From the NCBI GenBank assembly GCA_036630325.1, contig CP142726.1, positions 434,001 through 498,000 of the forward strand: a DNA stretch of 64,000 bases, read 5' to 3'. Within the stretch, counting starts at the first letter, position 1. The number at the start of each line of letters is the position of its first letter. The notes beneath the pieces were generated by a model. That model was given only the letters and a program-made list of their open reading frames with translations, was not told the origin of the DNA and did not search any database. Both the position numbers and the translations under genes were made by a program. This document shows positions 8,304-64,000 of this stretch, in pieces. Origin of the DNA: Vairimorpha necatrix (lineage: Eukaryota).

Positions 8304-8728
8304 TCAACCTTGTTTTAATAAATTCTTCCTTCTTTTCTTTGTTTTACAATAAAGGATAATTAATTCATAAAATTTAGCATAAGCATTTCTTGCAAAAATC
8401 TCATCCACATCTTGTAGTTCTGGTGGTTGGGAACAATTATTTCGTCCAACATTAAATTTCTGCATTTCTAATTTTATTCTCATCCGACAATGCCTTCGTT
8501 AATACTACCTTATACGCATAATGTAGGATATATTTAAAGGCTTGATTTGTTAATATTATACAATTTGATTTTTGATTTGATAGTTAAATTATCATGATGT
8601 CTTCCAATGAATTTATAGTCTTAAATTTTTTATTGGTACTTATGTTATTTTATTGGTTATTGGCATGATTACATAAATAAATATTTCTATTGGTACTTCT
8701 TTGGTTTTCTATAATTTTCGTTAATCAT
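8304..8728 (-). pseudogene. Possible frameshifted gene divergent from the TBC gene
   Basis: CCCC motif just upstream of ATG 8728. Protein-like segments in shifting frames (KYILHYAYKVVLTKALSDENK; SQPPELQDVDEIFARNAYAKFYELIILYC). No family recognised. Confidence 0.2.
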
Positions 8729-8731
8729 AGT

Positions 8732-46900: not shown

Positions 46901-47027
46901 TAAGTATTTTTAAACAATTATAGTTTTCATATTTTATATTATAAGAATTTGTATTAAGAAATATATTTATTTCTAATATTTTCATAAATACTGATTAAAA
47001 TCAAATATATTGATTTTTAATACACAA

Positions 47028-48274
47028 CACCAGGTTGATTCTGCCTGACGTAGACGCTATTCCCTAAGATTAACCCATGCATGTTTTTGATATGGAAAAA
47101 TGGACTGCTCAGTAATACTCACTTTATTTAATGTATTAAATTAGTATAACTGCGTTAAAGTGTAGCATAAGACATATACAGTAAGAGTGAGACCTATCAG
47201 CTAGTTGTTAAGGTAATGGCTTAACAAGGCAATGACGGGTAACGGTATTACTTTGTAATATTCCGGAGAAGGAGCCTGAGAGACGGCTACTAAGTCTAAG
47301 GATTGCAGCAGGGGCGAAACTTGACCTATGGATTTTATCTGAGGCAGTTATGGGAAGTAATATTCTATTGTTTCATATTGTAAAAGTATATGAGGTGATT
47401 AATTGGAGGGCAAATCAAGTGCCAGCAGCCGCGGTAATACTTGTTCCAAGAGTGTGTATGATGATTGATGCAGTTAAAAAGTCCGTAGTTTATATTTAAG
47501 AAGCAATATGAGGTGTACTGTATAGTTGGGAGAGAGATGAAATGTGACGACCCTGACTGGACGAACAGAAGCGAAAGCTGTACACTTGTATGTATTTTTT
47601 GAACAAGGACGTAAGCTGGAGGAGCGAAGATGATTAGATACCATTGTAGTTCCAGCAGTAAACTATGCCGACGATGTGATATGATATTAATTGTATTAGA
47701 TGATAGAAATTTGAGTTTATTGGCTCTGGGGATAGTATGATCGCAAGATTGAAAATTAAAGAAATTGACGGAAGAATACCACAAGGAGTGGATTGTGCGG
47801 CTTAATTTGACTCAACGCGAGGTAACTTACCAATATTTTATTATTCAGAGAAGATTTATAATCTGAGAATGATAATAGTGGTGCATGGCCGTTTTCAATG
47901 GATGCTGTGAAGTTTTGATTAATTTCAACAAGACGTGAGACCCTTTTATTAATAGACAGACACAATCAGTGTAGGAAGGAAAGGATTAAAACAGGTCCGT
48001 TATGCCCTCAGACATTTTGGGCTGCACGCGCAATACAATAGATATATAATCTTTATGGGATAATATTTTGTAAGAGATATTTGAACTTGGAATTGCTAGT
48101 AAATTTTATTAAATAAGTAGAATTGAATGTGTCCCTGTTCTTTGTACACACCGCCCGTCGCTATCTAAGATGATATGTGTTGTGAAATTAGTGAAAACTA
48201 CTTGAACAATATGTATTAGATCTGATATAAGTCGTAACATGGTTGCTGTTGGAGAACCATTAGCAGGATCATAA
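47028..48274 (+). rRNA. Microsporidian SSU (16S-like) rRNA
   Basis: Starts CACCAGGTTGATTCTGCC; contains GTGCCAGCAGCCGCGGTAA, TGTACACACCGCCCGTC and AAGTCGTAAC; ends GGATCATAA. Reduced ~1.25-kb size typical of Vairimorpha/Nosema. Confidence 0.99.
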
Positions 48275-48310
48275 TAAGTTAAATTTAAATTAATTTTAAT
48301 TATTAAATTT
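48275..48310 (+). other. Very short AT-rich ITS
   Basis: ~36 nt between the SSU end and the ACCCACACATGGGATC start of the LSU. Confidence 0.8.
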
Positions 48311-49904
48311 ACCCACACATGGGATCAATAGGATACCATAACGATGAAGGTCGTAATAGAATACGAAAGTATATTATTTACCTAATTAATATATTTATAA
48401 TGTATTGATAACCCTTTGAACTTAAGCATATCATTAAAAGGAGGAAAAGAAACTAACTAGGATTTCTTTAGTAGCAGCGAGTGAACAAGAAATAACCCTC
48501 CATTGTAATCCTTAATTGGAGTTGTAAATGGTTTATTCTATTAATTATATTTATAGAGAATATTAAATTCGTTATTAATAGAATAGAATAATGTACTTGA
48601 GTAGAGCTGCTTGGTAGTGCAGTTTGAATAAAGGTAGAATGAAATATCTAAGGTTAAATATAATGGTATACCGATAGAAAATAAGTACTGCGAAGGAACT
48701 TGTGAAAATGTGTGGAGTTTAGCCTTATTTTTAAGGACCCGTCTTGAAACACGGACCAAGGAGATTATAATTATAGCAAGATAAAAATTAAATTTTTTAA
48801 TCTTTATTAACTTGATTAGTTATAATTATAAGACCCGAAACACAGTGAACTATACATGTTCTGGTTGAAGATAAGCAACAGTTTATTGGAAGACCATAAT
48901 CATTCTGACGTGCAAATCGATGATTTAAGATGTGTATAGTGGCGAAAGACCAATCGAACTGTGTGGTAGCTGGTTCACAGCGAAATGTCTCTCAGGACAG
49001 CAGTTATTATTATATAGGACATAGATGTAGGACACTGTTATAGTTTTTTAACTATGAGAAATCTTTAATTCTATGGAATTATATAAATTAAATTTATATA
49101 ATGAATCTATTGGGTAACTAGTGGGCACATGATTGTAAGAATGATGTGCAAAAAGGGATGAACCTTATGAAACATTAAATATTCTAAATAGTAGATATTA
49201 TACCATAAATATGATGAATACATTGAGACAGTAGGGCGGTTGTTATGGAAGTAGAAATCCGCTAAGAAACGTGTTACAACGTACCTACCGAATGTATTAT
49301 TGTATAAAATGGAAGAAGATTACTACTTTTATGAGATGTTTCTAATAAATATTTAGGTAGCTGTGCAATTTGTTTGTATTGAAGTATATATGTGAGTATA
49401 TATAGAAGAAACAAATGAGCCGATCTTGGAGGCAGTAACAATATATTTGTATAGATATAGACTAGGGTTTTCAATTATTATTGAAGTGAATCGGTGTTAT
49501 TTATAAAAACAAAAAAGATTAATAATTCTTTATTAAATTATTATAAGGTAACTTGATAATGACAGTATATTTCAATAAATTTAAGATAAATGAATTAAAT
49601 TTAATTTTAACTATGGATTGTCATGATAAGAAATAGTTAGTTATATATACTTGATAAAAATAAAATAATTTTAACCGTACCTATACCGCATCAGGTGTCT
49701 TTGTATCATAACAAATATTTTAAATTAAAGTAAGTAAGGGAATTCGGCAAATTAGATCTGTAACTTTGGGATAAAGATTGGCTCTAGCATGCTAGAACTT
49801 TTACTATGTAAGGAATCTGACTGTTTATTAAAAACATAGCTTTTTGTATTTACAAGAAGTGAATTCTGCCCAGTGCATTTATTGTTAAAGTTGTGTAAGC
49901 GAAT

Positions 49905-49957
<53 letters not shown>

Positions 49958-50056
49958 TTAATTGGTGACGCGCATGAATGGAGCAACGAGATTCCTACTG
50001 TCCCTACTTACAATTTTGTGAAACCACGAGACAAGGGAACGGGCTTGTTATTTATC

Positions 50057-50088
<32 letters not shown>

Positions 50089-50523
50089 TTAGTATGTTTT
50101 AATAAATATTCGGTATATTGTAGAGAGGTGGGAGAAGTATTGTGAAACCACTAGTATGTTTGAACATTTATTTATTAGAATATATGGGGAGTTTGGCTGG
50201 GGCGGTACAGCTGTTAAAAAGTAACACAGCTGTCCTAAGGTAGATGAATGATGGATGGTAACCATCAGTTTATTATAAGGGAATAAATCTGCTTTACTTT
50301 ATGCATATGACTGTATTTAGTAGGGAAACCTTGGCCTAGCGATCCCAATTACATTCATTATGTATTGGGTGATTGAAAAGTTACCACAGGGATAACTGGC
50401 TTGTAGCAGGCAAGCGATCATAGCGACTCTGCTTTTTGATTCTTCGATGTCGTCTCTTCTGATCATCGTAGTGTATATGTTACGAAGTGTTGGATTGTTC
50501 ACCCGGTAATGAGGAACGTGAGA

Positions 50524-50565
<42 letters not shown>

Positions 50566-50790
50566 TAAGTATTTTTGAGTGAACTTTGATAGTACGAGAG
50601 GAACTCTAAGTGATGACCACTGGTAGTGCGATTAACTATTAAGTTATGTTGCTTAGCTACGTCGTTTCGATTAAGGCTGAAAGCCTCTTAAGCCTGAAGC
50701 GTAGCTCAAAGATACCATTTAGGAGAATACTACTCTTTTAAGCAGAACTGTAAGAATGAAGGTGTATGCCGACATTTTGAGGTTACTGCT
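48311..50790 (+). rRNA. LSU rRNA with fused 5.8S
   Basis: 5.8S-like CGATGAAG near the start with no ITS2; GACCCGTCTTGAAACACGGACC; GACTCTCTTAAGGTAGCCAAATGCC; sarcin-ricin loop AGTACGAGAGGAAC at 50591. 3' end approximate. Confidence 0.97.
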
Positions 50791-50858
50791 TTTTTTGTAT
50801 GTATAGTAGGTGTTGGCCTTCACAAGAGAGCGTATTTTTTTTTATTTTATTTGGTACT

Positions 50859-50927
50859 ACCCTCCACAAGAAAGCGTCCACGTCGCGGAGAGTGGGACCG
50901 ATGTTTTTTAACTAGGTGCAGATCTCT
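50859..50927 (+). ncRNA. Putative HDV-like self-cleaving ribozyme
   Basis: Manual fold. P1 ACCCTCC (50859-65)/GGAGAGT (50887-93), 1 mismatch. P2 AGAAA (50869-73)/TCTCT (50923-27), 1 mismatch. P3 GCG/CGC with L3 TCCACGT. P1.1 CC/GG (50894-95). P4 closed by ACC/GGT. J4/2 GCAGA with candidate catalytic C50919. Confidence 0.7.
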
Positions 50928-51046
50928 AAGTCATACCAACCTTCGGCTGCTGGTTGGTAAGTAGGGTCAGCTATACTCTAGGGGTGGGAGACCCATTGCT
51001 GGTGAGAAGAACACCGTTAACTTTCGAGTAATTCTTCATATTTTAA

Positions 51047-51131
51047 ACCTGGGAGAGGTTGGGCATGATACTGAAGCTGTATTGTTCCGCTGAACTGAGT
51101 CGTGTTCTTAAATGATGTATTGAACCAGGCG
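51047..51131 (+). repeat. 85-nt CCTGG..CCAGG element, repeated at 56619-56703 and 61624-61708
   Basis: Three copies; the first differs from the others at 4 positions. Terminal CCTGG/CCAGG are complementary; each copy is followed by a T-run. Confidence 0.92.
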
Positions 51132-51172
51132 TTTTATTTTTATTTTTTTTTTTTAATATGTAGTCAGAGAAT

Positions 51173-52846
51173 ATGAAGGGTGAGACAAAACAAACCAGGA
51201 GCGAGCTCAGTAGAGCAAAAAGTGACCACTTTGGTAGTCCAAACAACAATTTAGATACAGAAATGTATTTAAAACAACAAACTAAGCATGTTTATGCTAA
51301 TAAAAGTTTCCCAAGTGTTACTTTCAAAAATGATGGAGAAATGAAATATTTTCTCAAGAAAATCAAAATTCTCTCAGAAAGAATTAATAAAAATGATATT
51401 TTTGACACGTCAAAAAAAGAAAATAACAAAGATCTTATTGATCTTAAAAGATACATATCTAGCACAACTGAATTAGTATTTATTCAGCAGACATATTTGG
51501 AGCTCTTCCATGACAAGCTAGAAAAACAAAATATCAAATTAAAAAATTTGATTAAAAATAATCTGATGGATGACAGTAATCAAATTACCGAATCATCCAA
51601 AAATAAAATCGAGATAATGATTGAGAATCACTCAAAAGAATGTGTAGAACAAAAGGATAATAACTCCGATGTTCCAAATGATACCAGTAGCGAAACCCTT
51701 CAGTTAGCTACTGGAAACAATGATATTTCTAAATTAGAAATCATAAATGAAGATGTTTTAATTAATGTCAAAAATATCGTGTCTGCTGTCAAAGTAGAAG
51801 AAGAAGATCGATTGTCAGATGATGGCAAAAGAAAATGTATAGGTGTCTCAAATGCGTCTACAAATATTATAATTAATAAAAATATTAAAACAAAAGATGT
51901 TAAGCTAGACTTAGCTTTCATTAATAAAAAAGCAGTAGTTAGACATCTGTCAACTATCTCTGCTATTATAGCTGGTAAAAGAAAAGCTCCTAAGAATGGA
52001 GTCAAGCTTTTCCATATAAACGAAGACGGATGGACATCTGTCAAACACACATTCAAGCCTAAAGTCCAGATAGACTTGAAGAAAAACAGAAGTGGTAAAA
52101 CCACAGATAAAACCAACTTTAATAGATTTAAATCACTTAAAGTAGAAACTAGTGGCAATGTAAAAGTGCCCAAAAAGATTAATCATGAAGCTGTAAAGAG
52201 AAAGAATATCATTCCTAAAAAAGATCATGAAAAGGAAAGATTACAAAATCAGAGAATAAATTTTACAAAAAAAACGAAGGACAGAAAAAATGAGAAATGT
52301 CAACAAAAAAGAGTTCCAGTTTTACCAAAGAAAAACTGGGCCAAAGAGCTATCTGAAGAAGCTCTTATGAAAATTATTAAGGATGGTAGAATTATTTCCA
52401 AGTGTAAGTTTAGGATAGCTCTTGTGTCTGGACTCGGATTGAAAGGGAAACCTCAATCTAGAGACGCTTGGGCAGCCTTAGCTGATGTGGAAAATAAAGA
52501 TATACCACTTATAAAACAATTTAAAGATTCGGAAGTAGTACTTCTGATGATTAGAGAACACGTGGGCCAAAAGGTACTAAGCAAAATTAAAGAAAAGTTC
52601 GGAGGTTCTAATATCTGCGATGAAGTTAATTTCTTCACCGACTTTATGTCTTTAACAAAAACAACTGTTCTAGGAGAGCTGCAAAGACTCTCTGGAACGC
52701 ATAAAAATTTTGTACCGCTTGTAAAAGCATGTTGGTACATAACTAAAGAATTAAATAAAGAAAACCCAAACCATGGTTCTTTCATTATTTTAGAAAATAT
52801 GATGGGTGAGCCTGCCCGAGAATCTAAGGACTTTAACAATGAATAA
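51173..52846 (+). CDS. LINE ORF1 protein, Lys/Asn-rich, no motif recognised
   Basis: 557-aa ORF directly upstream of ORF2; homologous sequence is repeated in copy 2. Confidence 0.8.
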   Translation: MKGETKQTRSELSRAKSDHFGSPNNNLDTEMYLKQQTKHVYANKSFPSVTFKNDGEMKYFLKKIKILSERINKNDIFDTSKKENNKDLIDLKRYISSTTELVFIQQTYLELFHDKLEKQNIKLKNLIKNNLMDDSNQITESSKNKIEIMIENHSKECVEQKDNNSDVPNDTSSETLQLATGNNDISKLEIINEDVLINVKNIVSAVKVEEEDRLSDDGKRKCIGVSNASTNIIINKNIKTKDVKLDLAFINKKAVVRHLSTISAIIAGKRKAPKNGVKLFHINEDGWTSVKHTFKPKVQIDLKKNRSGKTTDKTNFNRFKSLKVETSGNVKVPKKINHEAVKRKNIIPKKDHEKERLQNQRINFTKKTKDRKNEKCQQKRVPVLPKKNWAKELSEEALMKIIKDGRIISKCKFRIALVSGLGLKGKPQSRDAWAALADVENKDIPLIKQFKDSEVVLLMIREHVGQKVLSKIKEKFGGSNICDEVNFFTDFMSLTKTTVLGELQRLSGTHKNFVPLVKACWYITKELNKENPNHGSFIILENMMGEPARESKDFNNE

Positions 52847-55800
52847 AGTATCTTTGTTAAAGTCCTGTTATTATAGGAAATTATTTTCCTATAACAAGAG
52901 TGATATTTTCAAATCTCTAAATAAAAAAATGCATAATCCAATTGGTTATAATAAATTAAAAAATACTTTCAAAACACCAAGGAGACTGAATAGTTTCAAA
53001 TATTTTTCTATTAGAAAGAATATGTGGTGGAAGAAAGTACAAGAACAATATTGTATTGTCAAGATACAAAGAATTCCTTATGGAGTGAAAGATCTCCTCA
53101 AAGACTTATGTAAGAAGAACTCTCTTTTGGAGAATTCCATCATTACAGCAAGAAAGTATAGACGAAGAGACACGTCTTTTACAAAAATAATAGTTGAAAA
53201 ACTATACGCAAATTTATTGATTAAGACAGTTAAAGCTAAAGGCTTTAAAGTTTTAAATGATAATAGAAAAGAACTAGAGAAATCTAGTAAAGTAAATAAA
53301 AAGACCAAAGAGAACATAAAACTCTTAAGTCTAAACATTAATCATCTCTCTAATAAGAGAGAAGAACTTGAGTTTCTTCTTAAGAAGGAGAAACCAGAAA
53401 TTATGTGTTTACAAGAAACTTGGAGACAATCTACAAGACCTTTAAAACTTGAAAAATACACTACAGTTGAAACACCTAGTGGTGGAAAAAATAAACCAGG
53501 ATTAATAACTCTGGTTAGAAATAATGGAGCGATCAGATGTTCCAAAAAAGGAACCGACTCAAACATTCTGCAAACTGTAGTTGAGTTTAGTTCAGCAGGC
53601 AAATGGATTAAGTATTTAGTCTTAAATGTCTACATACCACAAAACAAGGATCTCAAAAGGGAGACCTTGGCTAGATTATTTTCTCTTTTAGAAAAAGAGA
53701 ATTTCAGAAATAACTATAGTGAGATCATAGTGATGGGAGATATGAATATGCAGAGTTCTAGTCTCAAGAAAAAATTAAATGTAGTTGGTTTGCCAGTTAC
53801 AATAAAATATAACAGCAACGATGGTACAAGGATCCTCAAAGATGGTAAAAGATCTAAGAGGAAAATTGATACCATCTTTCGACTAAAAAGTAATGATAAT
53901 GAGAAGATCATTATATCCAAGTCTTGGGTATTAAGTGATCACTTAGTGCTCAAAAGAAGTATTAAACTTGCCGTTGATAAGATCTCCGATCAACTAGTTT
54001 ATGATAAGAAAATGCTGGAAAATCCAAAAGTGATTAAAAAGCTAAAAAAGAAGTTGTGTAATCAACAATTAAACATGAATAATCTCCCCGAGATTATTCA
54101 GAAAGTTTGTACATCTTTGAAGATTTACAAAAAGAGAAGAGTCCATACTGGACTTACAATGAGATGGAGATATTTAAAAGTCTTCAAAGAAAAACGTCTA
54201 GCAGCAAGAGCTGTTATGAAAAATTACAATGAAATCAACTCAATTAGATTCGAATATCTCAAAAAGAGAGTAGACGAAACTAAAAAGTTGATTCGCAAAG
54301 ATAGATCGAAACTTTGGGCTTTAAGAGGAATAAAGCTCTTTAAAAGTAACAGATCCCGAGAATTCTGGCAATGGCTGAAAAATAGAAGTGTTTCCATTCG
54401 TTTGGATCAAGTGGCTCTAATTGACCACAATAAGCTTCTTCAGACTTGCCGAGCAAAGAAGCTAGAAATAGCAAATAATTTTTACGCTGATTTGGCGTCA
54501 GAGAATGATATAGATGTCAATGTCTATGATAAAGTAGATCTTGTTGTTCTTCCCCCAGAGATAACAGATGAAGAATTTCTATCCGCACTGAAGAAATGTG
54601 GAAATAACAAAGCTGCCGGTCCTGATGAGATTCCAACCGAGCTATACAAATACTTACTGACTAGAGCAGTAGAAGATAAATTCTTTAAATTCATGCTACA
54701 TGAATTTAATAAATATATTTGTGGAAATAGTACTCCTGAATATTGGAGCATGGCAAACATGATTTGCCTTCACAAAAAAGGAGATGAGACAGATCTGAAT
54801 AATTATAGGGGAATCTCCTTAATTAACACAATTAGTAAGATCTATCTCAAGATAATAAATGACAGGTTAACTCAATTTGTCGAAGAACAAGATATACTCT
54901 CTAGATACCAAGCAGGATTCCGAGCAGGTGAAGAGTGTATGAATCAGATTACATCTTTACTAGAAATAGTGAGAAGAAGAGAATTCAGAGGCTTGAACAC
55001 AATAATGTGTTTCATTGACTTTGAAAAAGCTTATGATAATGTAAGTCATGACTTATTATTTGAAAAGCTTACAAAACTTAATATCCCATTGTATTTAATC
55101 AATACAATAAAGGATATTTATAAATATACCACCATGCGTGTGAAAATTGGTGGTGACACGTCAAGTGGTTATAGCTACAGAAAAGGAGTGAGACAAGGGT
55201 GCCCTTGTTCTCCAATGCTGTTCAATATATTCATCAATGATATTTTTGACGGCATAGAAGGAGTTTTGATCCCAAGATCAAATACGAGAGTTCCGGGACT
55301 GATGTTCGCAGATGATATTGTTGTCTTCGGAAACAACATTGATGATCTTAATAATAAGATCAATAGAATTTCAAAGTGGGCAGTTAATAACAGAATGAAG
55401 ATTAACTGCACAAAAAGCGGAGTATTAGAATGGAATGCTCATTCCAACATACAAGAATTCCGAAGTTTGTATTCTCTCAGTACAGACTTTGGTGTGATTG
55501 AAGAAGTCACTGAATACAGATATCTAGGTGTCTTAATTAAAAGAAACACGCTAGAAGAACATTTGGTCAAAGACGCAGCAATGCGTGGCAAGAAAGCCTT
55601 AGACGCCTTGATGCCCAAGTTGATGAATAATAGCATCAACCTTTACTTCAAGGCGATCTTAATCAAATGTGTACTAGTACCCACACTAATGTATGGTAGT
55701 GAACTGTGGGGAATGTCAAGTACAAGAGCAGGTAAGATTAACAGGATCTTAAGAAAATCTATCAGAATGATATTCAAAAGAGTATTAGTTCCACTAGATA

Positions 55801-56531
55801 GAGTAATGGACGAGTTCAGTATCGAACGAATTCATATACAAGCAGCTTTAAGTAGATTTAGAGCATACAACAAGTGGAAACACAATAAGACAATCATATC
55901 GGATATAATTGCAATAAATCCGAAAGAAAGAAAAACTACCTGGTGTTCAAGAACACAAAGATGGTTAAAACGATTTGTCGGCAACGAATACGAATCAAGT
56001 GATAGTAAATTTATCACTTCAAAAATAATTGATGTACTAAGAAGTCGAAGAACTTTAAATACTTCCTTAGCTGCATCAATAGCAAACCAATATGACATAA
56101 GAAAATCACAAATAAAATATGTCATGAACAAAATAAATAATAGAAAAATTAGAACATATTTTAGATTGAGATGTAATCTAGTAAAGTGGTCCTCAGCAAT
56201 AGCATATTCAAAAAGAATACCAATGAGTTATAGAAACAAATGCTTTTTGTGTGATGGACCACAAGAAAATTTAGAACACTTTCTGTTGGAGTGCGTCTGT
56301 TTTACTGACATTAGAACATCTTTTGAAAATAAACTGCCTCTACTGACTTGTTCAAAAACAAATATCCGAGAAAAAACCAAACAACTCCTTGGTAATAAAA
56401 TCGGACTAAAAAATAACCCAGATAAGATAAAAGAACTTTGTTGGACTATAGAGTTCTTAGATAGAATGGTTGTCTCTAGAAGAATTATATTTGAAAAGAA
56501 ACTTAAAGAGATAACAAAACAGGATAATTAA
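52839..56531 (+). CDS. LINE ORF2: AP endonuclease + reverse transcriptase + C-terminal CCHC
   Basis: LNINHL, CLQET, NVYIP, MGDMN, IDTIF, LSDH; AAGPDEIP, NYRGISL, QAGFR, FIDFEKAYD, GVRQG, FADD, YLG; CFLC..ENLEHFLLEC. First ATG at 52839 overlaps the ORF1 stop. Confidence 0.97.
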   Translation: MNKVSLLKSCYYRKLFSYNKSDIFKSLNKKMHNPIGYNKLKNTFKTPRRLNSFKYFSIRKNMWWKKVQEQYCIVKIQRIPYGVKDLLKDLCKKNSLLENSIITARKYRRRDTSFTKIIVEKLYANLLIKTVKAKGFKVLNDNRKELEKSSKVNKKTKENIKLLSLNINHLSNKREELEFLLKKEKPEIMCLQETWRQSTRPLKLEKYTTVETPSGGKNKPGLITLVRNNGAIRCSKKGTDSNILQTVVEFSSAGKWIKYLVLNVYIPQNKDLKRETLARLFSLLEKENFRNNYSEIIVMGDMNMQSSSLKKKLNVVGLPVTIKYNSNDGTRILKDGKRSKRKIDTIFRLKSNDNEKIIISKSWVLSDHLVLKRSIKLAVDKISDQLVYDKKMLENPKVIKKLKKKLCNQQLNMNNLPEIIQKVCTSLKIYKKRRVHTGLTMRWRYLKVFKEKRLAARAVMKNYNEINSIRFEYLKKRVDETKKLIRKDRSKLWALRGIKLFKSNRSREFWQWLKNRSVSIRLDQVALIDHNKLLQTCRAKKLEIANNFYADLASENDIDVNVYDKVDLVVLPPEITDEEFLSALKKCGNNKAAGPDEIPTELYKYLLTRAVEDKFFKFMLHEFNKYICGNSTPEYWSMANMICLHKKGDETDLNNYRGISLINTISKIYLKIINDRLTQFVEEQDILSRYQAGFRAGEECMNQITSLLEIVRRREFRGLNTIMCFIDFEKAYDNVSHDLLFEKLTKLNIPLYLINTIKDIYKYTTMRVKIGGDTSSGYSYRKGVRQGCPCSPMLFNIFINDIFDGIEGVLIPRSNTRVPGLMFADDIVVFGNNIDDLNNKINRISKWAVNNRMKINCTKSGVLEWNAHSNIQEFRSLYSLSTDFGVIEEVTEYRYLGVLIKRNTLEEHLVKDAAMRGKKALDALMPKLMNNSINLYFKAILIKCVLVPTLMYGSELWGMSSTRAGKINRILRKSIRMIFKRVLVPLDRVMDEFSIERIHIQAALSRFRAYNKWKHNKTIISDIIAINPKERKTTWCSRTQRWLKRFVGNEYESSDSKFITSKIIDVLRSRRTLNTSLAASIANQYDIRKSQIKYVMNKINNRKIRTYFRLRCNLVKWSSAIAYSKRIPMSYRNKCFLCDGPQENLEHFLLECVCFTDIRTSFENKLPLLTCSKTNIREKTKQLLGNKIGLKNNPDKIKELCWTIEFLDRMVVSRRIIFEKKLKEITKQDN

Positions 56532-56936
56532 TATGAATAATTAAAAACAATAAAATCTAGAAATGGAAGAAAGAGATGTTATTTTACTAACAAGAAAACT
56601 TATATTTAATTATATTTGACCTGGGAGAGGTCGGGCATGATACTGATGCTGTATTGTTCCGCTGAACTGAGTCGTGTTCTTAAATGGTGTATTGAGCCAG
56701 GCGTTTTCGTTTTTCATCAGACTCATGAAAGTGGGTCTCTAGTCATATTATGACTAAGGATGTATCCTATGGGAACAAACTTTTCTCCTACAAGCGAGGC
56801 CGTTAAGGTATGCTGGCGTGTAAACGCACTTATTGATGATTTTTTCTTTATTAGTGGAGTTTTTGGTGGCTTGGAGGCTTTTCTTCGTTTTGCTGATTCT
56901 GTCTTTTTTTACAATAAACAATTTTATTTTTTTTTT

Positions 56937-59900
56937 AGTAGTTAGACATCTGTCAACTATCTCTGCTATTATAGCTGGTAAAAGAAAAGCTCCTAAGAAT
57001 GGAGTAAAACTTTACCATACAAATGAAGACGGATGGACATCTGTCAAACACACATTCAAGCCTAAAGTCCAGATAGACTTGAAGAAAAACAGAAGTGTCA
57101 ACCCCACGTATAAATCTAACTTTAATAGATTTAAATCACTTAAAGTAGAAATCGGTGGCAATATAAAAGTGCCCAAAAATACTATTTATGAAGTTTTAAG
57201 GAGAAAATTTATCATTCCTAAAAAAGATCATGAAAAAAGAAGATCACAAAATCGTAAAAAAAATTCTACCCCCAAAATGGAGAACAAAAAAGGGGAGAAA
57301 TCTCAGAAAAAGGGAAGCTCAGTTTAACCAAAGAAAAACTGGGCTGAAGGGCTATCAGACGAAGCTCTCATGAAAATTATTAAGGGTGGTAGATACATAT
57401 CTAAATGCAAGTTCAAGTTAGCTCTTGTGTCTGGACTCGGGTTGGACGGGAAGCCCCAATCTAGAGATGCCTGGGCAGCGATGATGGAAGTGCAAAGCAA
57501 AGATATCACCCTTATAAAACAATTTAAAGAGTCAGAAGTAGTACTCATGATGATTAGAGAAAACGTGTGCCAAAAGGTACTTAAAAAAATTAAAGAAAGA
57601 TTTGTAGGTTCCGACATCTGCGATGATGAAGAATTCTTTGCTGGCTTCTTATCTTTTAATAAATCAATTGTTCTTGGAGAACTACTGAGACTCTCCGGAA
57701 CACATAAAAAGTTTGTACCACTTGTGAAAGCATGTAGGTACATAACTAAAGAATTGAATAAAGAAAGTCCCGAATACGATTCCTTTATTTACTTAAAAAA
57801 AATGATGGGTGAACCTGCCCGAGAATTCAAGGACTTTAATAATGAATAAAGTATCTTTGCTAAAGTCCTGTTTTTATAGGAAATTATTTTCTTATAACAA
57901 AAGCGATATTTTTAAATCTTTAAATAAAAAAATGCATAATCCAATTGGTTATAATAAATTAAAAAATACTTTCAAAACACCAAGGAGACTGAATAGTTTC
58001 AAATATTTTTCTATTAGAAAGAATATATGGTGGAAGAAAGTACAAGAAAAATATCGTATTGTCAAGATACAAAGAATTCCTTATGGAGTGAAAGATCTCC
58101 TCAAAGACTTATGTAAGAAGAATTCTCTTTTGGAGAATTCCATCATTACAGCAAGAAAGTATAGACGAAGAGACACGTCTTTTACAAAAATAATAGTTGA
58201 AAAACTATACGCAAATTTATTGATTAAGACAGTTAAAGCTAAAGGCTTTAAAGTTTTAAATGATAATAGAAAAGAACTAGAGAAATCTAGTAAAGTAAAT
58301 AAAAAGACCAAAGAGAACATAAAACTCTTAAGTCTAAACATTAATCATCTCTCCAATAAGAGAGAAGAACTTGAGTTTCTTTTTAAGAAGGAGAAGCCAG
58401 AAATCATGTGTTTACAGGAAACTTGGAGACAATCTACAAGACCTTTAAAACTTGAAAAATACACTACAGTTGAAACACCTAGTGGTGGAAAAAATAAACC
58501 AGGATTAATAACTCTGGTTAGAAATAATGGAGCGATCAGATGTTCCAAAAAAGGAACAGACTCAAACATCCTGCAAACCGTAGTTGAGTTTAGTTCAGCA
58601 GGCAATTGGATTAAGTATTTAGTCTTAAATGTCTACATACCACAAAACAAGGATCTCAAAAGGGAGACCTTGGCCAGATTATTTTCTCTTTTAGAAAAAG
58701 AGAATTTCAGAAATAACTATAGTGAGATCATAGTGATGGGAGATATGAATATGCAGAGTTCTAGTCTCAAGAAAAAACTAAAGGTAGTTGGTTTGCCAGT
58801 TACAATAAAATATAACAGCAACGATGGTACAAGGATTCTCAAAGATGGTAAAAGATCTAAGAGGAAAATTGATACCATCTTTCGACTAAAAAGTAATGAT
58901 AATGAGAAGATCATTATATCCAAGTCTTGGGTATTAAGTGATCACTTAGTGCTCAAAAGAAATATTAAACTTACTGTTGATAAGATCTCAGATCAACTAG
59001 TTTATGATAAGAAGATGCTGGAAAATCCAAAAGTGATTAAAAAGCTTAAAAAGAAGTTGTGTAATCAACAATTAAACATGAATAATCTTCCTGAGATTAT
59101 TCAAAAAGTTTGTACATCGTTAAAGATTTACAGAAAGAAAAAAGTCCATACTGGACTTACAATGAGATGGAGATATTTAAAAGTCTTCAAAGAAAAACGT
59201 CTAGCAGCAAGAGCTGTTATGAAAAATTACAATGAAATCAACTCAATTAGATTCGAATATCTCAAAAAGAAAGTAGACGAAACTAAAAAGTTGATTCGCA
59301 AAGATAGATCGAAACTTTGGGCTTTAAGAGGAATGAAGCTCTTTAAAAGTAACAGATCCCGAGAATTCTGGCAATGGCTGAAAAATAGAAGTGTTTCCAT
59401 TCGTTTGGATCAAGTGGCTCTAATTGACCACAATAAGATTCTTCAGACTTGCCGAGCAAAGAAGCTAGAAATAGCGAATAAATTTTACGCCGAATTGGCG
59501 TCAGAGAATGATATAGATGTCAATGTCTATGATAAAGTAGATCTTGTTGATCTTCCCCCAGAGATAACAGATGAAGAATTTCTATCCGCACTGAAGAAAT
59601 GTGGAAATAACAAAGCAGCCGGTCCTGATGAGATTCCAACCGAGCTATACAAATACTTACTGACTAGAGCAGTAGAAGATAAATTCTTTAAATTCATGCT
59701 ACATGAATTTAATAAATATATTTGTGGAAATAGTCCTCCTGAATACTGGAGCATGGCAAACATGATTTGCCTTCACAAAAAAGGAGATGAGACAGATCTG
59801 AATAATTATAGGGGAATCTCCTTAATTAACACAATTAGTAAGATCTATCTCAAGATAATAAATGACAGGTTAACTCAATTTGTCGAAGAACAAGATATAC

Positions 59901-61941
59901 TCTCTAGATACCAAGCAGGATTCCGAGCAGGTGAAGAGTGTATGAATCAGATTACATCTTTACTAGAAATAGTGAGAAGAAGAGAATTTAGAGGCTTGAA
60001 CACAGTAATGTGTTTCATTGACTTTGAAAAAGCTTATGATAATGTAAGTCACGACTTATTATTTGAAAAGCTTACAAAACTTAATATCCCATTGTATTTA
60101 ATCAATACAATAAAGAATATTTATAAATATACCACCATGCGTGTGAAAATTGGTGGTGACACGTCAAGTGGCTATAGCTACAGAAAAGGAGTGAGACAAG
60201 GGAGCCCTTGTTCTCCAATGCTGTTCAATATATTCATCAATGATATTTTTGACGGCATAGAAGGAGTTTTGATCCCAAGATCAAATACGAGAGTTCCGGG
60301 ACTGATGTTCGCAGATGATATTGTTGTCTTCGGAAACAACATTGATGATCTTAATAATAAGATCAATAGAATTTCTAATTGGGCGGTTAATAACAGAATG
60401 AAGATTAACTGCACAAAAAGCGGAATATTAGAATGGAATTCTCATTCCAACATACAAGAATTCCGAAGTTTGTATTCTCTCAGTACAGACTTTGGTGTGA
60501 TTGAAGAAGTCACTGAATACAGATATCTAGGTGTCTTAATTAAAAGAAACACGCTAGAAGAACATTTGGTCAAAGACGCAGCAATGCGTGGCAAGAAAGC
60601 CTTAGACGCCTTGATGCCCAAGTTGATGAATAATAGCATCAACCTTTACTTCAAGGCGATCTTAATCAAATGTGTACTAGTACCCACACTAATGTATGGT
60701 AGTGAACTGTGGGGAATGTCAAGTACAAGAGCAGGTAAGATTAACAGGATCTTAAGAAAATCTATCAGAATGATATTCAAAAGAGTATTAGTTCCACTAG
60801 ATAGAGTAATGGACGAGTTCAGTATCGAACGAATTCATATACAAGCAGCTTTAAGTAGATTTAGAGCATACAACAAGTGGAAACACAATAAGACAATCAT
60901 ATCGGATATAATTGCAATAAATCCGAAAGAAAGAAAAACTACCTGGTGTTCAAGAACACAAAGATGGTTAAAACGATTTGTCGGCAACGAATACGAATCA
61001 AGTGATAGTAAATTTATCACTTCAAAAATAATTGATGTACTAAGAAGTCGAAGAACTTTAAATACTTCCTTAGCTGCATCAATAGCAAACCAATATGACA
61101 TAAGAAAATCACAAATAAAATATGTCATGAACAAAATAAATAATAGAAAAATTAGAACATATTTTAGATTGAGATGTAATCTAGTAAAGTGGTCCTCAGC
61201 AATAGCATATTCAAAAAGAATACCAATGAGTTATAGAAACAAATGCTTTTTGTGTGATGGACCACAAGAAAATTTAGAACACTTTCTGCTGGAGTGCGTC
61301 TGTTTAACTGACATTAGATCATCTTTTGAAAATAAACTGCCTCTACTGACTTGTTCAAAAACAAATATCCGAGATAAAACCAAGCAACTCCTTGGTAATA
61401 AAATCGGACTAAAAAATAACCCAGATAAGATAAAAGAACTTTGTTGCACTATAGAGTTCTTAGATAGAATGGTTGTCTCTAGAAGAATTATGATTAATAA
61501 CAAACTGAAGGAGATAACGAAACAAAATAATTAATATAGCTTAATTAAAAAAAATGAAGATCTAGAATTAGAAGAAAGAAGTGTTATATTTTTAACAAAA
61601 AGACTTATATTTAATTATATTTGACCTGGGAGAGGTCGGGCATGATACTGATGCTGTATTGTTCCGCTGAACTGAGTCGTGTTCTTAAATGGTGTATTGA
61701 GCCAGGCGTTTTCGTTTTTCATCAGACCCATGAAAGTGGGTCTCTAATCATATTATGACTAAGGATGTATCCTATGGGAACAAAATTTTCTCCTACAAGC
61801 GAGGCCGTTAAGGTATGCTGGCGTGTAAACGCAATTATTGATGATTTTTTCTTTATTAGTGGAGTTTTTGGTGGCTTGGAGGCTTTTCTTCGTTTTGCTG
61901 ATTCTGTCTTTTTTACAATAAACAATTTTATTTTTTTTTTT
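56937..61941 (+). mobile_element. LINE copy 2, 5'-truncated within ORF1
   Basis: Begins at the equivalent of 51934, right after the copy-1 T-tract. ORF1 remnant is frameshifted near 57300; same 3' UTR. Confidence 0.95.
57842..61534 (+). CDS. LINE ORF2 (APE-RT-CCHC), copy 2
   Basis: Open, same length as and nearly identical to copy-1 ORF2. Confidence 0.95.
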   Translation: MNKVSLLKSCFYRKLFSYNKSDIFKSLNKKMHNPIGYNKLKNTFKTPRRLNSFKYFSIRKNIWWKKVQEKYRIVKIQRIPYGVKDLLKDLCKKNSLLENSIITARKYRRRDTSFTKIIVEKLYANLLIKTVKAKGFKVLNDNRKELEKSSKVNKKTKENIKLLSLNINHLSNKREELEFLFKKEKPEIMCLQETWRQSTRPLKLEKYTTVETPSGGKNKPGLITLVRNNGAIRCSKKGTDSNILQTVVEFSSAGNWIKYLVLNVYIPQNKDLKRETLARLFSLLEKENFRNNYSEIIVMGDMNMQSSSLKKKLKVVGLPVTIKYNSNDGTRILKDGKRSKRKIDTIFRLKSNDNEKIIISKSWVLSDHLVLKRNIKLTVDKISDQLVYDKKMLENPKVIKKLKKKLCNQQLNMNNLPEIIQKVCTSLKIYRKKKVHTGLTMRWRYLKVFKEKRLAARAVMKNYNEINSIRFEYLKKKVDETKKLIRKDRSKLWALRGMKLFKSNRSREFWQWLKNRSVSIRLDQVALIDHNKILQTCRAKKLEIANKFYAELASENDIDVNVYDKVDLVDLPPEITDEEFLSALKKCGNNKAAGPDEIPTELYKYLLTRAVEDKFFKFMLHEFNKYICGNSPPEYWSMANMICLHKKGDETDLNNYRGISLINTISKIYLKIINDRLTQFVEEQDILSRYQAGFRAGEECMNQITSLLEIVRRREFRGLNTVMCFIDFEKAYDNVSHDLLFEKLTKLNIPLYLINTIKNIYKYTTMRVKIGGDTSSGYSYRKGVRQGSPCSPMLFNIFINDIFDGIEGVLIPRSNTRVPGLMFADDIVVFGNNIDDLNNKINRISNWAVNNRMKINCTKSGILEWNSHSNIQEFRSLYSLSTDFGVIEEVTEYRYLGVLIKRNTLEEHLVKDAAMRGKKALDALMPKLMNNSINLYFKAILIKCVLVPTLMYGSELWGMSSTRAGKINRILRKSIRMIFKRVLVPLDRVMDEFSIERIHIQAALSRFRAYNKWKHNKTIISDIIAINPKERKTTWCSRTQRWLKRFVGNEYESSDSKFITSKIIDVLRSRRTLNTSLAASIANQYDIRKSQIKYVMNKINNRKIRTYFRLRCNLVKWSSAIAYSKRIPMSYRNKCFLCDGPQENLEHFLLECVCLTDIRSSFENKLPLLTCSKTNIRDKTKQLLGNKIGLKNNPDKIKELCCTIEFLDRMVVSRRIMINNKLKEITKQNN

Positions 61942-61956
61942 ATATGTAGTCAGAGA

Positions 61957-62162
61957 TGACTAAGGATCTGTTACCTACAGGAACAAATTTTTCTCCCACA
62001 AGCGAGGCCGTCAAGGTATGCTGGCGTGTAAACGCAATTATTGATGTTTTTCTTTATTGGTGGAGTTTTTGGTGGCTTGGTGGGTTTCTTCGTTTTGCTG
62101 ATTCTGTCTTTTAACAATAAACTTTTTTATTTTATTTTTTTATTTTTACAAGCGAGGCCGTT
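61957..62162 (+). mobile_element. Short LINE 3'-UTR-only fragments
   Basis: 61957-62147 is a diverged copy of the last ~190 nt of the 3' UTR with its T-tail. 62148-62162 (ACAAGCGAGGCCGTT) is a 15-nt internal UTR piece. Confidence 0.85.
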
Positions 62163-64000
62163 GTGGCTCTAATTGATCACAATAAGCTTCTTCAGACTTG
62201 CCGAGCAAAGAAGCTAGAAATAGCGAATAATTTTTACGCTGATTTGGCGTCAGAGAATGATATAGATGTCAATGTCTATGATAAAGTAGATCTTGTTGAT
62301 CTTCCCCCAGAGATAACAGATGAAGAATTTCTATCCGCACTGAAGAAATGTGGAAATAACAAAGCTGCCGGTTCTGATGAGATTCCAACCGAGCTATACA
62401 AACACTTACTGACTAGAGCAGTAGAAGATAAATTCTTTAAATTCATGCTACATGAATTTAATAAATATATTTGTGGAAATAGTCCTCCTGAATACTGGAG
62501 CATGGCAAACATGATTTGCCTCCACAAAAAAGGAGATGAGACAGATCTGAATAATTATAGGGGAATCTCCTTAATTAACACAATTAGTAAGATCTATCTC
62601 AAGATAATAAATGACGGGTTAACTCAATTTGTCGAAGAACAAGATATACTCTCTAGATACCAAGCAGGATTCCGAGCAGGTGAAGAGTGTATGAATCAGA
62701 TTACATCTCTACTAGAAATAGTGAGAAGAAGAGAATTCAGAGGCCTGAACACAATAATGTGTTTCATTGACTTTGAAAAAGCTTATGATAATGTAAGTCA
62801 TGACTTATTATTTGAAAAGCTTACAAAACTTAATATCCCATTGTACTAAATCAATACAATAAAGGATATTTATAAATATACCACCATGCGAATAAAAATC
62901 GCCGGAGAAACATCAAGTAGCTATAGTTACAGAAAAAAAATAAGACAAGGGTGCCCTTGTTCTCCAATGCTGTTCAATATACTTATCAATGATATTTTTG
63001 ACGGCATAGATGGTATCTTGATCCCAAGATCAAACACGAAAGTTCCGGGACTGATGTTCGCAGATGATATCTTTGTCTTTGGAAACGACAATGATGATCT
63101 TAGTAATAAGATCAATAGAATTTCTAATTGGCGGTTAATAACAGGATGAAGATTAACTCCACAAAAAGCGGAGTCTTAGAAATGACTGCCCACTCTAACA
63201 TACAAGAAATCCGAAGTTTGTATTCTCTCAATACTAACTTTGGTGGGATTGAAGAAGTTACAGAAGACAGATATCTGGGTGTCTTAGTTGAAAGAAACAC
63301 GCTAGAAGAACACTTGGTCAAAGACGCAGCAATGCGTGGCAAGAAAGCCTTAGATTCCCCGATGTCCAAGTTGATGAATTACAGCATTAACCTCTATTTC
63401 AAGGCGATCTTAATAAAATGTGTACTAGTACCCACACTAATGTACGGCAGTGAATTGTGGGGAATGTCAAGTACAAGAGCAGGTAAGATTAACAGGATCT
63501 TAAGAAAGTCTATCAGAATGATATTCAAAAGAGTATTAGTTCCACTAGATAGAGTAATGGACGAGTTCAGTATTGAACGAATTCATATACAAGCAGCTTT
63601 AAGTAGATTTAGAGCATACAACAAGTGGAAACACAATAAAACAATCATATCGGATATAATCTCAATCCATCCGAAAGAAAGAAAAACTACTTGGTGTTCA
63701 AGAACACAAAGATGGTTAAAACGATTACGAAACGAGTTATAGTAGATTTATTACTACAAATATCTTTATTTACTAAGAAGTCGAACAACTCTAAATACTT
63801 CTTTAGCTGCATCAATAGCAAACCAATATGACATAAGAAATTCACAAATTAAATATGTCATAAACAAAATAAATAATAGGAAAATTAGAACATATACTAG
63901 ATTGAGATGTAACCTAGTAAAGTGGTCCTCAGCAATAGCCAATTCAAAAAGAATACCAATGAGTTATAGAAACAAATGCTTTTTGTATAATGGACCACAA
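62163..64000 (+). mobile_element. LINE copy 3, 5'-truncated within ORF2, defective, runs off the window
   Basis: Starts at the equivalent of 54411; stop at 62847-62849 and frameshifts near 63130 and 63730. Confidence 0.93.

What the first reader, a model, noticed from the sequence alone, without database searches (positions are those of the whole stretch)
50859..50927. HDV-like double-pseudoknot ribozyme just downstream of LSU rRNA
All HDV elements occur in the correct order (P1, P2, P3/L3, P1', P1.1, P4, J4/2 CNRA, P2'). The core GCG-TCCACGT-CGC is one base from the CPEB3 ribozyme core GCG-TTCACGT-CGC as I recall it. Caveats: one C-A mismatch each in P1 and P2, and an A-U first pair instead of the usual G-U, so this copy may be weak. 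Besides releasing the LINE RNA, it could help trim the pre-rRNA 3' end.
Basis: partly seen in the sequence, partly recalled or inferred. Interest (0 to 1): 0.85.

Follow-up and report, generated by a model that had tools for sequence, protein, structure and literature searches.

The report
Degenerate HDV-like ribozyme motif after rRNA
Just past the large-subunit rRNA gene of a microsporidian parasite, at the head of a row of jumping genes (LINEs), lies a sequence laid out like the hepatitis-delta self-cutting RNA; it is probably real but worn, and whether it still cuts is untested.

Summary
Window 50859-50927 (+) carries every HDV-like element in the right order. Its 13-nt P3-L3-P3' core differs by one base from the Rfam CPEB3 consensus. 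A descriptor fitted to it after the fact, requiring a GC-rich P3 and a C at L3 position 3, hits only this site in the window. It hit 9 of 501 shuffled windows.

Membership is not established:
- Rfam scores only 14.8 bits, against a threshold of 35.
- The cut-site base is A, not the invariant G.
- P1 and P2 each carry a C/A mismatch, and P4 is only 3 bp.
- Competing folds are about 10 kcal/mol more stable.
- No homologue could be retrieved, so covariation is untested.

The motif does not sit at the LINE's recurrent 5' end, which is near 51155. It follows a T-run and heads a ~300-nt unit (50854-51154) whose tail is a 95.5%-identical copy of the LINE 3'-UTR block. That unit opens a head-to-tail LINE array in the same orientation as the rRNA gene.

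Best reading (about 0.45): a decayed or weak HDV-like ribozyme that once freed LINE-related RNA from rRNA read-through transcripts. It would be a new member of a known kind and apparently the first in microsporidia. The main rival is a chance look-alike inside a spacer hairpin.

The parts
47028..48274 (+). SSU rRNA gene (microsporidian type)
   Evidence: Rfam RF02542, 1056.9 bits, full model 1-1311
48389..50833 (+). LSU rRNA gene. The 3' end is uncertain. The confident alignment ends near 50725, and the tail helices probably lie within 50726-50833.
   Evidence: Rfam RF02543, 1346.8 bits. The reported end is 50989 and 50901. The alignment of the last helices is poor.
50807..50832 (+). Upstream copy of a 26-nt imperfect direct repeat. 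It matches 50851-50876, which covers the P1/P2/P3 5' strands, at 19 of 26 positions.
   Evidence: A match this good arose in 1 of 200 mononucleotide shuffles of 50760-51060. The repeat finder did not report it.
50834..50852 (+). T-run directly in front of the motif. A 15-nt stretch is identical to a LINE tail variant at 62123-62137.
50859..50927 (+). HDV-like motif. P1 50859-65/50887-93; J1/2 50866-68; P2 50869-73/50923-27; P3 50874-76/50884-86; L3 50877-83; P1.1 50894-95 with 50878-79; P4 50897-99/50915-17; J4/2 50919-22, with the candidate catalytic C at 50919.
50851..50901 (+). Competing plain hairpin. It extends the P1 helix upstream of the proposed cut site and uses the P1.1 Gs and the P4 5' strand.
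   Evidence: MFE -16.8 kcal/mol, z = -1.27, 21 of 200 shuffles fold as well
50928..51037 (+). GC-rich spacer (48% GC) that resembles nothing else in the window
51038..51154 (+). Copy of the LINE 3'-UTR block followed by a T-rich tail. 51047-51134 matches 56619-56706 at 84 of 88 positions. This forms the tail of 'unit 0'.
51155..51172 (+). Recurrent LINE head: 15 nt that follow a T-run here and again at 61941-61955
   Evidence: (family D12)
51173..52846 (+). LINE ORF1 (557 aa). Homologues named Vairimorpha necatrix and V. ceranae start at the same MKG.
52806..56531 (+). LINE ORF2 (AP-type endonuclease plus reverse transcriptase). The likely ATG is at 52839.
56532..56936 (+). LINE 3' UTR, containing the conserved block 56619-56706 and ending in a T-run
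56937..64000 (+). Further head-to-tail LINE units, each starting after a T-run: a unit 5'-truncated in ORF1 (from 56937), an internally deleted unit (from 61941), and a unit truncated in ORF2 (from about 62163, running off the window).

Best explanation
50859-50927 is most likely a genuine but mutationally worn (weak or dead) HDV-like self-cleaving ribozyme. It sits at the 5' head of a short LINE-related retro-unit (about 50854-51154: ribozyme head, 110-nt GC-rich spacer, LINE 3'-UTR block, T tail).

That unit opens a same-strand tandem array of AP-endonuclease-type LINEs immediately downstream of the LSU rRNA gene of a Nosema/Vairimorpha-like microsporidian.

Proposed mechanism (inferred, not shown):
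1. Transcription that reads through from the rRNA gene, or from anywhere upstream, enters the array.
2. The ribozyme folds co-transcriptionally and cuts 5' of A50859, using C50919 as the general acid.
3. This releases a 5'-OH RNA that carries the LINE tail needed for reverse transcription.
4. The pre-rRNA side is left with a short 3' spacer ending in a cyclic phosphate.

This copy has A where the canonical fold has G at the cut-site base and at one position each of P1 and P2. It probably cleaves poorly or not at all.
For: **Layout and core (shown).** All elements are present in order, with U...CC.CG in L3, two G-C P1.1 pairs and a CNRA J4/2. The core is 12 of 13 identical to the Rfam CPEB3 consensus.

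**Chance (shown).** It is the only hit in the window under the stricter descriptor, which hit 9 of 501 shuffled windows.

**Conditional control (shown).** Of 113 analysable viral-contig sites with the same core plus GG, 21 also had a P1 with at most 1 mismatch. Only 4 also had CNRA plus P2. By eye, at least two of those four (L116, L118) are clean canonical HDV-like folds. So the core does occur in HDV-type folds. Core-bearing sites rarely have the remaining helices.

**Context (shown).**
- The LINE array is on the same strand as the rRNA gene.
- All 4 unit junctions in the array are a T-run followed by a unit head. The motif likewise starts 6 nt after a T-run.
- The segment it heads ends in a 95.5% copy of the LINE 3'-UTR block plus a T tail.
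- The segment is 41-51% GC in a 31% GC window.

**Decay (inference).**
- All three departures from the canonical fold are A where G is expected.
- 3 of the 4 differences between unit 0's block and units 1 and 2 are A/T in unit 0.
- Both fit an older copy drifting towards AT.

**Literature.**
- R2 ribozymes tolerate P1 and P2 mismatches and a variable or absent P4 (PMC3774820, section 16 read).
- LINE-specific repeats flank rRNA operon tails in other microsporidia (PMC12449221, passages seen).
Against: - The cut-site base is A. G1 and the G-U wobble are described as invariant or essential (PMC8495972, passages seen).
- There is an internal P1 mismatch. Such mismatches coincided with no in-vitro cleavage in horseshoe-crab R2 (PMC3774820).
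- P2 alone is +3.9 kcal/mol and P4 is -1.6. The nested helices total -8.3, against -18.1 for the competing MFE.
- Upstream bases extend P1 and sequester both P1.1 Gs. This is a known inhibitor of P1.1 (PMC3185411).
- No Rfam HDV-type family reaches threshold.
- There is only one copy in the window, and no relative was found anywhere. Conservation is therefore untested.
- The LINE's recurrent head is at 51155, 296 nt downstream. Membership of the motif in the LINE family is inferred only from the T-run rule and the shared tail.
- Read-through transcription past a 19-nt T-run is assumed, not shown.
Confidence: 0.45

Rival explanations
1. Chance look-alike. 50851-50901 is simply an imperfect hairpin in the native 3' external spacer or intergenic spacer of the rDNA. 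The weak P2, P4 and J4/2 assignments are read into neighbouring sequence. The LINE array then begins only at 51038.
For: - The helix runs on upstream of the supposed cut site, and the plain hairpin is -16.8 kcal/mol against -8.3 for the HDV helices.
- The permissive descriptor is common by chance: 7 hits against 3.8 expected.
- The invariant G1 is missing.
- Homology to the LINE starts only at 51038.
- The Rfam match is sub-threshold.
- The scan covers very many windows, so events at about 2% per window will occur somewhere.
Against: - The exact GC-rich 13-nt core, one base from the CPEB3 consensus, occurs in a 31% GC window.
- The stricter descriptor hit 9 of 501 shuffles.
- Only 4 of 113 core-bearing viral sites also have P1 and CNRA plus P2.
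- The hairpin's own z-score is only -1.27.
- The location, between an rRNA gene and a co-oriented LINE array, is exactly where such ribozymes are known.
- There is no T-run in front of 51038, unlike all 4 other unit junctions.
Confidence: 0.28
2. A native rDNA ribozyme. An HDV-like ribozyme belongs to the 3' external transcribed spacer itself and cuts the Pol I transcript to start 3'-end maturation or termination. It is independent of the LINEs, which later inserted beside it.
For: - It lies within roughly 30-130 nt of the likely LSU 3' end.
- 50854-51037 has no similarity to the LINE.
- A 26-nt imperfect repeat links the motif's 5' half to sequence at the LSU tail.
Against: - No such spacer ribozyme came up in the literature searches run here. 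These looked for HDV-like ribozymes with microsporidia and with retrotransposons. No search for rDNA-spacer ribozymes as such was made.
- The same weaknesses of fold and G1 apply.
- A T-run separates the motif from the LSU.
- Nothing could be compared across rDNA units.
Confidence: 0.07
3. Part of the mature LSU rRNA. The hairpin is the reduced terminal helix set (H99-H101) of the microsporidian LSU, as the Rfam alignment places it.
For: Rfam's LSU alignment runs through the region, to 50901 and 50989. It pairs GGTAC at 50853-57 with GGACC at 50895-99 as the closing helix.
Against: - The two alignments disagree on the end, and non-canonical pairs are flagged.
- A 19-nt T-run would lie inside the rRNA.
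- A plausible H98-H101 set already fits in 50726-50833 (fold).
- LSU lengths recalled for Nosema species (about 2.5 kb; recalled, not checked) put the end near 50800.
Confidence: 0.05

Closest known systems
Mammalian CPEB3 ribozyme (Rfam RF00622), an HDV-like ribozyme
   Same: The P3-L3-P3' core is 12 of 13 identical to the Rfam consensus. The local alignment covers 50864-50888 against model positions 17-42. The order of elements is the same.
   Different: - Only 26 of 78 model positions align, at 14.8 bits against a gathering score of 35.
- The cut-site base is A, not G.
- P4 and the P2 3' strand do not align.
- CPEB3 is an intronic ribozyme of mammals, not linked to a transposon or to rDNA.
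- The shared core may be convergence. [quoted passage not shown]
R2 retrotransposon 5' ribozyme (Eickbush & Eickbush; PMC3774820)
   Same: It is an HDV-like fold at the junction of the LSU rRNA gene and a co-oriented non-LTR element, and it processes an rRNA co-transcript. Within the family, P1 is 6-7 bp with mismatches in about a quarter of elements, P2 has mismatches in about a third, and P4 is variable or absent (section 16 read).
   Different: - R2 sits inside the 28S gene at a fixed site. It uses a restriction-like endonuclease (recalled).
- Here the elements lie past the LSU 3' end, and ORF2 has an AP-type endonuclease.
- The motif is 296 nt upstream of the recurrent LINE head.
- Activity is unknown.
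L1Tc/NARTc ribozyme L1TcRz of Trypanosoma cruzi (PMC3185411, PMC3383444)
   Same: An HDV-like ribozyme lies in the first 77 nt of a LINE, and the same 77 nt are shared with the non-LTR partner NARTc (abstract listing). Upstream bases that extend P1 disturb P1.1 (PMC3185411, passage seen). The same situation holds here.
   Different: It comes from a different eukaryotic lineage and LINE family. L1TcRz doubles as an internal promoter and its cleavage is proven. Here the full-length LINE in the window lacks the motif.
Theta / minimal HDV-like ribozymes of phages (Kienbeck et al. 2024, PMC10879173; listing and abstract only)
   Same: The same core plus GG occurs in phage contigs with clean HDV-like helices: L116, L118, and L024 with a one-base offset. 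L001 has a 6-bp P1 with a G-T first pair and no P4 (judged by eye).
   Different: These are a prokaryotic-virus setting with GC-rich helices, some lacking P4. There is no relation to rDNA or LINEs. They are not homologues, only users of the same core.

Membership tests
HDV-like self-cleaving ribozymes | Nested double pseudoknot with the order P1, P2, P3/L3, P1', P1.1, P4, J4/2, P2' | tested here: met
   Helices laid out on the sequence. The descriptor accepts the site.
HDV-like self-cleaving ribozymes | G at +1 forming a G-U wobble at the cut site (described as invariant or essential in PMC8495972) | tested here: not met
   A50859 pairs with T50893. An 8-bp register starting with a T50858/G50894 wobble is possible but atypical.
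HDV-like self-cleaving ribozymes | P1 of at least 6 continuous base pairs | tested here: not met
   Six of 7 positions pair, but the C50861/A50891 mismatch splits them into runs of 2 and 4 bp. About a quarter of R2 ribozymes carry 1-2 P1 mismatches.
HDV-like self-cleaving ribozymes | 3-bp P3 and an L3 with the conserved U, CC, C and G positions | tested here: met
   GCG/CGC and TCCACGT, one base from the CPEB3 consensus. Which L3 positions are conserved is partly recalled. The conserved G and its reverse wobble with U are from PMC3774820.
HDV-like self-cleaving ribozymes | P1.1 formed by the bases after P1' with the L3 cytosines | tested here: met
   GG 50894-95 with CC 50878-79. The same Gs can instead pair with T50858 and C50857.
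HDV-like self-cleaving ribozymes | Catalytic C in a CNRA-type J4/2 leading into P2' | tested here: met
   CAGA at 50919-22, followed by TCTCT. This is by sequence only.
HDV-like self-cleaving ribozymes | P2 of at least 5 bp and a closed P4 or short linker | tested here: inconclusive
   P2 has 4 of 5 pairs and is +3.9 kcal/mol alone. P4 is 3 bp with a 15-nt loop at -1.6 kcal/mol. R2 ribozymes show similar looseness.
HDV-like self-cleaving ribozymes | Site-specific self-cleavage dependent on the catalytic C | not testable with these tools
   This needs an in-vitro transcription assay.
HDV-like self-cleaving ribozymes | Conservation with compensatory changes among related copies | not testable with these tools
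   No related copy was found in the window, earlier findings, viral contigs, metagenome contigs (chance hit only), prokaryote genomes or the protein collection.
Rfam CPEB3_ribozyme (RF00622) and other Rfam HDV-type families | Score at or above the family's gathering threshold | tested here: not met
   14.8 bits against 35. No other ribozyme family scored at E up to 10 in a 96-nt search.
R2-type ribozyme (5' end of an rDNA-resident LINE) | Ribozyme at the element's 5' end, at the junction with rRNA sequence | tested here: inconclusive
   The motif heads a LINE-tailed unit right after a T-run. The recurrent head of the full-length LINE is at 51155 and lacks the motif.
R2-type ribozyme (5' end of an rDNA-resident LINE) | Element of the R2 clade inserted inside the 28S gene | tested here: not met
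   The array lies beyond the conserved LSU. ORF2 carries an Exo_endo_phos (AP-type) endonuclease.

The most novel reading that the evidence does not exclude
The motif is an active HDV-like ribozyme despite an A-U first pair and two A/C pairs, which may act as protonated wobbles. It caps a new kind of short non-autonomous retroelement: a ribozyme head, a LINE 3'-UTR tail and a T-rich end. This element and its partner LINEs home to T-runs at the tail of microsporidian rRNA genes and ride on Pol I read-through. One cut would both free the retroelement RNA and set the 3' end of the pre-rRNA. That would give a mechanism for the reported co-location of LINEs with rRNA operon tails in microsporidia.
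Probability: 0.12. Interest if true: 0.7.

Novelty: new member of a known kind. Interest (0 to 1): 0.45.

Why it matters
HDV-like ribozymes are known to free R2 and other LINE RNAs from host co-transcripts.

None has been reported in microsporidia. My search for 'HDV-like' with 'microsporidia' found 2 papers, and by title and abstract neither is on this topic.

Long-read assemblies now show LINE repeats lying specifically at rRNA operon tails in several microsporidia, without a mechanism (PMC12449221, passages seen). A ribozyme at such a junction would give a testable mechanism, namely rRNA-driven expression of the LINEs. It would also be a marker for finding these junctions in other species.

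If this copy is dead, it is still a dated footprint of that mechanism.

Tried and rejected
**Whole genome.** None is held.

**Sequencing runs.** The best holders had 0.38 and 0.31 of the sampled words, and the rest had 0.14 or less. None was laid, so they say nothing about habitat, strain or expression.

**Read laying.** There is therefore no RNA-end or junction evidence.

**Collection scans.**
- Metagenome scan with a 22-mer of the motif: one hit (L002), inside a high-GC bacterial contig and with no HDV layout.
- Viral scans: the 19-mer gave one phage locus, L001. ORF2 and a 26-mer from the LSU 3' region gave nothing.
- Prokaryote genome scans: nothing.

**Spurious-ORF trick.** The 88-aa stop-to-stop frame across 50698-50961 was searched for annotated look-alikes in relatives. 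No candidate was found.

**Earlier findings of this scan.** Nothing on this genome or sequence.

**Alternative folds.**
- A P4-less version (J4/2 CCGA 50898-901, P2' T6 50904-09) was rejected. Only 2 nt link P1.1 to J4/2. The phage examples have linkers of 5-8 nt.
- A large-P4 version with P2' at 51032-36 was rejected because its J4/2 is not CNRA.

**Fold stability.** Neither the LINE block 51040-51140 (z = -0.17) nor unit 0 as a whole (z = +0.88) folds better than shuffles.

**LINE tail.** My first reading, that the LINE tail includes GTAGT(C/T)AGA, was wrong. At 56937 those bases belong to ORF1 of the next unit.

Full report
**What the window is**

Rfam finds a complete microsporidian SSU rRNA at 47028-48274 and a eukaryotic-type LSU rRNA starting at 48389, both on the + strand.

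The LSU 3' end is not well defined. The full scan ends the match at 50989, while a scan of 50300-51400 ends it at 50901. The confident alignment stops near 50725, and the last helices are aligned with flagged non-canonical pairs. A fold of 50720-50860 can accommodate the terminal helices before the T-run at 50834-50852.

Downstream on the same strand lies a head-to-tail array of non-LTR retrotransposons:
- ORF1 51173-52846 and ORF2 52806-56531 (RVT_1 E = 8e-39; Exo_endo_phos 25.0 bits against a cut-off of 24.5).
- A second ORF2 at 57809-61534.
- A third, truncated copy from about 62163.

ORF1's only relatives in the protein collection are named Vairimorpha necatrix (58% identity) and V. ceranae (47%) by their sources. 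Both share the same MKG start. The organism is therefore a Nosema/Vairimorpha-like microsporidian. The rest of the window is rich in Ty3/gypsy-type elements.

**The observation**

- P1 has 6 of 7 pairs (C50861/A50891 mismatched).
- P2 has 4 of 5 pairs (A50872/C50924 mismatched).
- P3 is GCG/CGC and L3 is TCCACGT.
- P1.1 is two G-C pairs.
- P4 is 3 bp.
- J4/2 is CAGA, with C50919.

The recalled likeness to CPEB3 is confirmed by a tool. Rfam aligns 50864-50888 to positions 17-42 of the 78-position CPEB3 model, and the 13-nt core differs at one base. The score is 14.8 bits against a threshold of 35. No other ribozyme family appears at E up to 10, even in a 96-nt search.

**Is it more than chance?**

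A purely structural descriptor loose enough to accept the site is not informative. It gives 7 distinct hits in the window against 3.8 +/- 1.6 in 40 shuffles.

Requiring P3 with at least two G-C pairs and a C at L3 position 3 leaves this site alone. That version hit 9 of 501 dinucleotide shuffles of the window and 10 of 1791 shuffles of 47000-64000. The descriptor was fitted after the fact, so the true chance level is somewhat higher.

Of 113 analysable sites, 21 had a P1 with at most one mismatch, and 4 also had CNRA followed by a P2 with at most one mismatch. By eye, L116 and L118 are clean canonical HDV-like folds. L024 fits with a one-base offset. L001, which has a 6-bp P1 and was found with the 19-mer, is a P4-less version.

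Two things follow. The core is one that real-looking HDV-type folds use. A site with the core seldom has the remaining helices by accident.

**What speaks against an active ribozyme**

- The base at the cut site is A, paired with U. A review co-authored by workers in the field calls the G-U wobble essential and G1 one of at least six invariant nucleotides. It also notes that single mismatches in the substrate helix lower cleavage (PMC8495972, section 5 passages).
- In R2 elements a P1 mismatch coincided with no in-vitro cleavage in horseshoe crab (PMC3774820). The same paper reports P1 mismatches in about a quarter of R2 ribozymes, P2 mismatches in about a third, and P4 ranging from absent to long (section 16).
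- The HDV helices are weak. P1+P3+P4 total -8.3 kcal/mol and P2 alone is +3.9. The unconstrained fold of 50845-50935 is -18.1.
- The P1 helix continues upstream of the proposed cut (T50858/G50894, C50857-G50895, then 50851-55 with 50897-901). This uses both P1.1 guanines and the P4 strand. Such P1 extension is a known inhibitor (PMC3185411).
- That plain hairpin is itself unremarkable: z = -1.27, and 21 of 200 shuffles fold as well.

**Where the motif sits relative to the LINE**

All four unit junctions in the array consist of a T-run followed by the head of the next unit, truncated at different points.

A 15-nt head directly in front of the ORF1 ATG (51155) recurs after the T-run at 61941, in front of an internally deleted unit. 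The LINE's usual 5' end is therefore about 51155, not 50859. I cannot exclude that the T-run lies inside a longer 5' UTR.

Upstream of 51155 is a T tail (51135-54). Before that is a copy of the LINE 3'-UTR block (51047-51134, 84 of 88 identical to units 1 and 2, which are 88 of 88 identical to each other). Homology to the LINE stops at 51038, and 50800-51037 matches nothing else in the window except T-runs.

There is no T-run in front of 51038. The nearest is 50834-50852, six bases before the motif.

By the T-run rule, 50854-51154 is one retro-unit. It has a ribozyme-like head, a 110-nt GC-rich spacer, a LINE tail block and a T tail. It is 41-51% GC in a 31% GC window.

This architecture resembles short internally deleted or non-autonomous partners of ribozyme-bearing LINEs. 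One example is NARTc with L1Tc, which share the same first 77 nt (abstract listing). R2-derived SIDEs are another (recalled, not checked).

**Signs of decay**

- All three departures from the canonical fold are an A where G would be canonical: the +1 base, the P1 mismatch and the P2 mismatch.
- Three of the four differences between unit 0's block and the younger units are A/T in unit 0.
- Three departures in 69 nt matches the 4.5% divergence of the block.

This fits an older copy drifting towards AT. It is inference.

**An unexplained detail**

50807-50832, just before the T-run, matches 50851-50876 (the P1/P2/P3 5' strands) at 19 of 26 positions. One of 200 shuffles of the local 300 nt did as well. 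The repeat finder did not report it. It could be a second, tiny head-plus-tail unit, a target duplication or an accident.

**What could not be done**

- No genome is held for the window.
- The metagenome scan returned only a chance match in a bacterial contig.
- Viral, prokaryote-genome and protein-collection searches returned no relative of the region.
- Earlier findings of the scan hold nothing on this genome.

Conservation, covariation, RNA ends and read-through transcription are therefore all untested.

**Verdict**

| Reading | Confidence |
|---|---|
| Real but weak or dead HDV-like ribozyme heading a LINE-tailed unit at the rDNA tail | about 0.45 |
| Chance look-alike within a spacer hairpin | about 0.28 |
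| Native spacer ribozyme | about 0.07 |
| Part of the mature LSU | about 0.05 |
| Unassigned | remainder |

It cannot be filed as a member of the HDV-like family. The G1 feature and the Rfam threshold were tested and not met. The layout and context still make 'works, or once worked, like the R2 ribozyme' the leading idea.

Literature context:
- LINE repeats specific to rRNA operon tails have been reported in other microsporidia without a mechanism (PMC12449221).
- The search for HDV-like ribozymes together with microsporidia found nothing on the topic.

Noticed in passing
window 51047-51134, 56619-56706, 61624-61711: An ~88-nt block is conserved at 95-100% in the LINE 3' UTR. It also lies directly before the T tail of the short unit upstream of ORF1. 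It may be the RNA element the LINE's reverse transcriptase recognises. Its fold is no better than shuffles (z = -0.17).
   Followed up: partly
window 51135-51172, 56920-56948, 61926-61970, 62108-62170: The LINE units end in T-rich runs on the sense strand rather than poly(A). Every new unit starts right after such a run, truncated at a different point. This suggests target-primed insertion into T-runs, including the elements' own tails, and would explain the tandem array.
   Followed up: partly
P0001 (protein named Vairimorpha necatrix 'ATP-dependent RNA helicase', 816 aa): This database protein is a read-through of LINE pieces: an ORF1 C-terminus, about 165 aa of ORF2 N-terminus nearly identical to the window's, then a full ORF1. 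It is not a helicase. It shows that the same LINE family forms rearranged tandem copies in V. necatrix.
   Followed up: partly
L116, L118, L024, L001 (IMG/VR viral contigs): Phage contigs carry the same P3-L3 core in clean HDV-like layouts. L118 and L024 start P1 with T-G rather than G-T. L001 and L024 lack P4. Rfam gives L001 only the same sub-threshold CPEB3 partial hit (13.8 bits). They look like theta or minimal HDV-like ribozymes.
   Followed up: partly
window 2188-2877 (-), 14790-17963 (-), 19891-22965 (+), 35769-36584 (-): Several Ty3/gypsy-type LTR retrotransposon ORFs (protease, RT, RNase H, integrase) lie upstream of the rDNA. The rRNA unit therefore sits in a transposon-rich region. 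A RabGAP-TBC gene is at 8690-9712.
   Followed up: no
window 50807-50832 and 50851-50876: A 26-nt imperfect direct repeat (19 of 26) brackets the T-run in front of the motif. Its origin is unexplained.
   Followed up: partly
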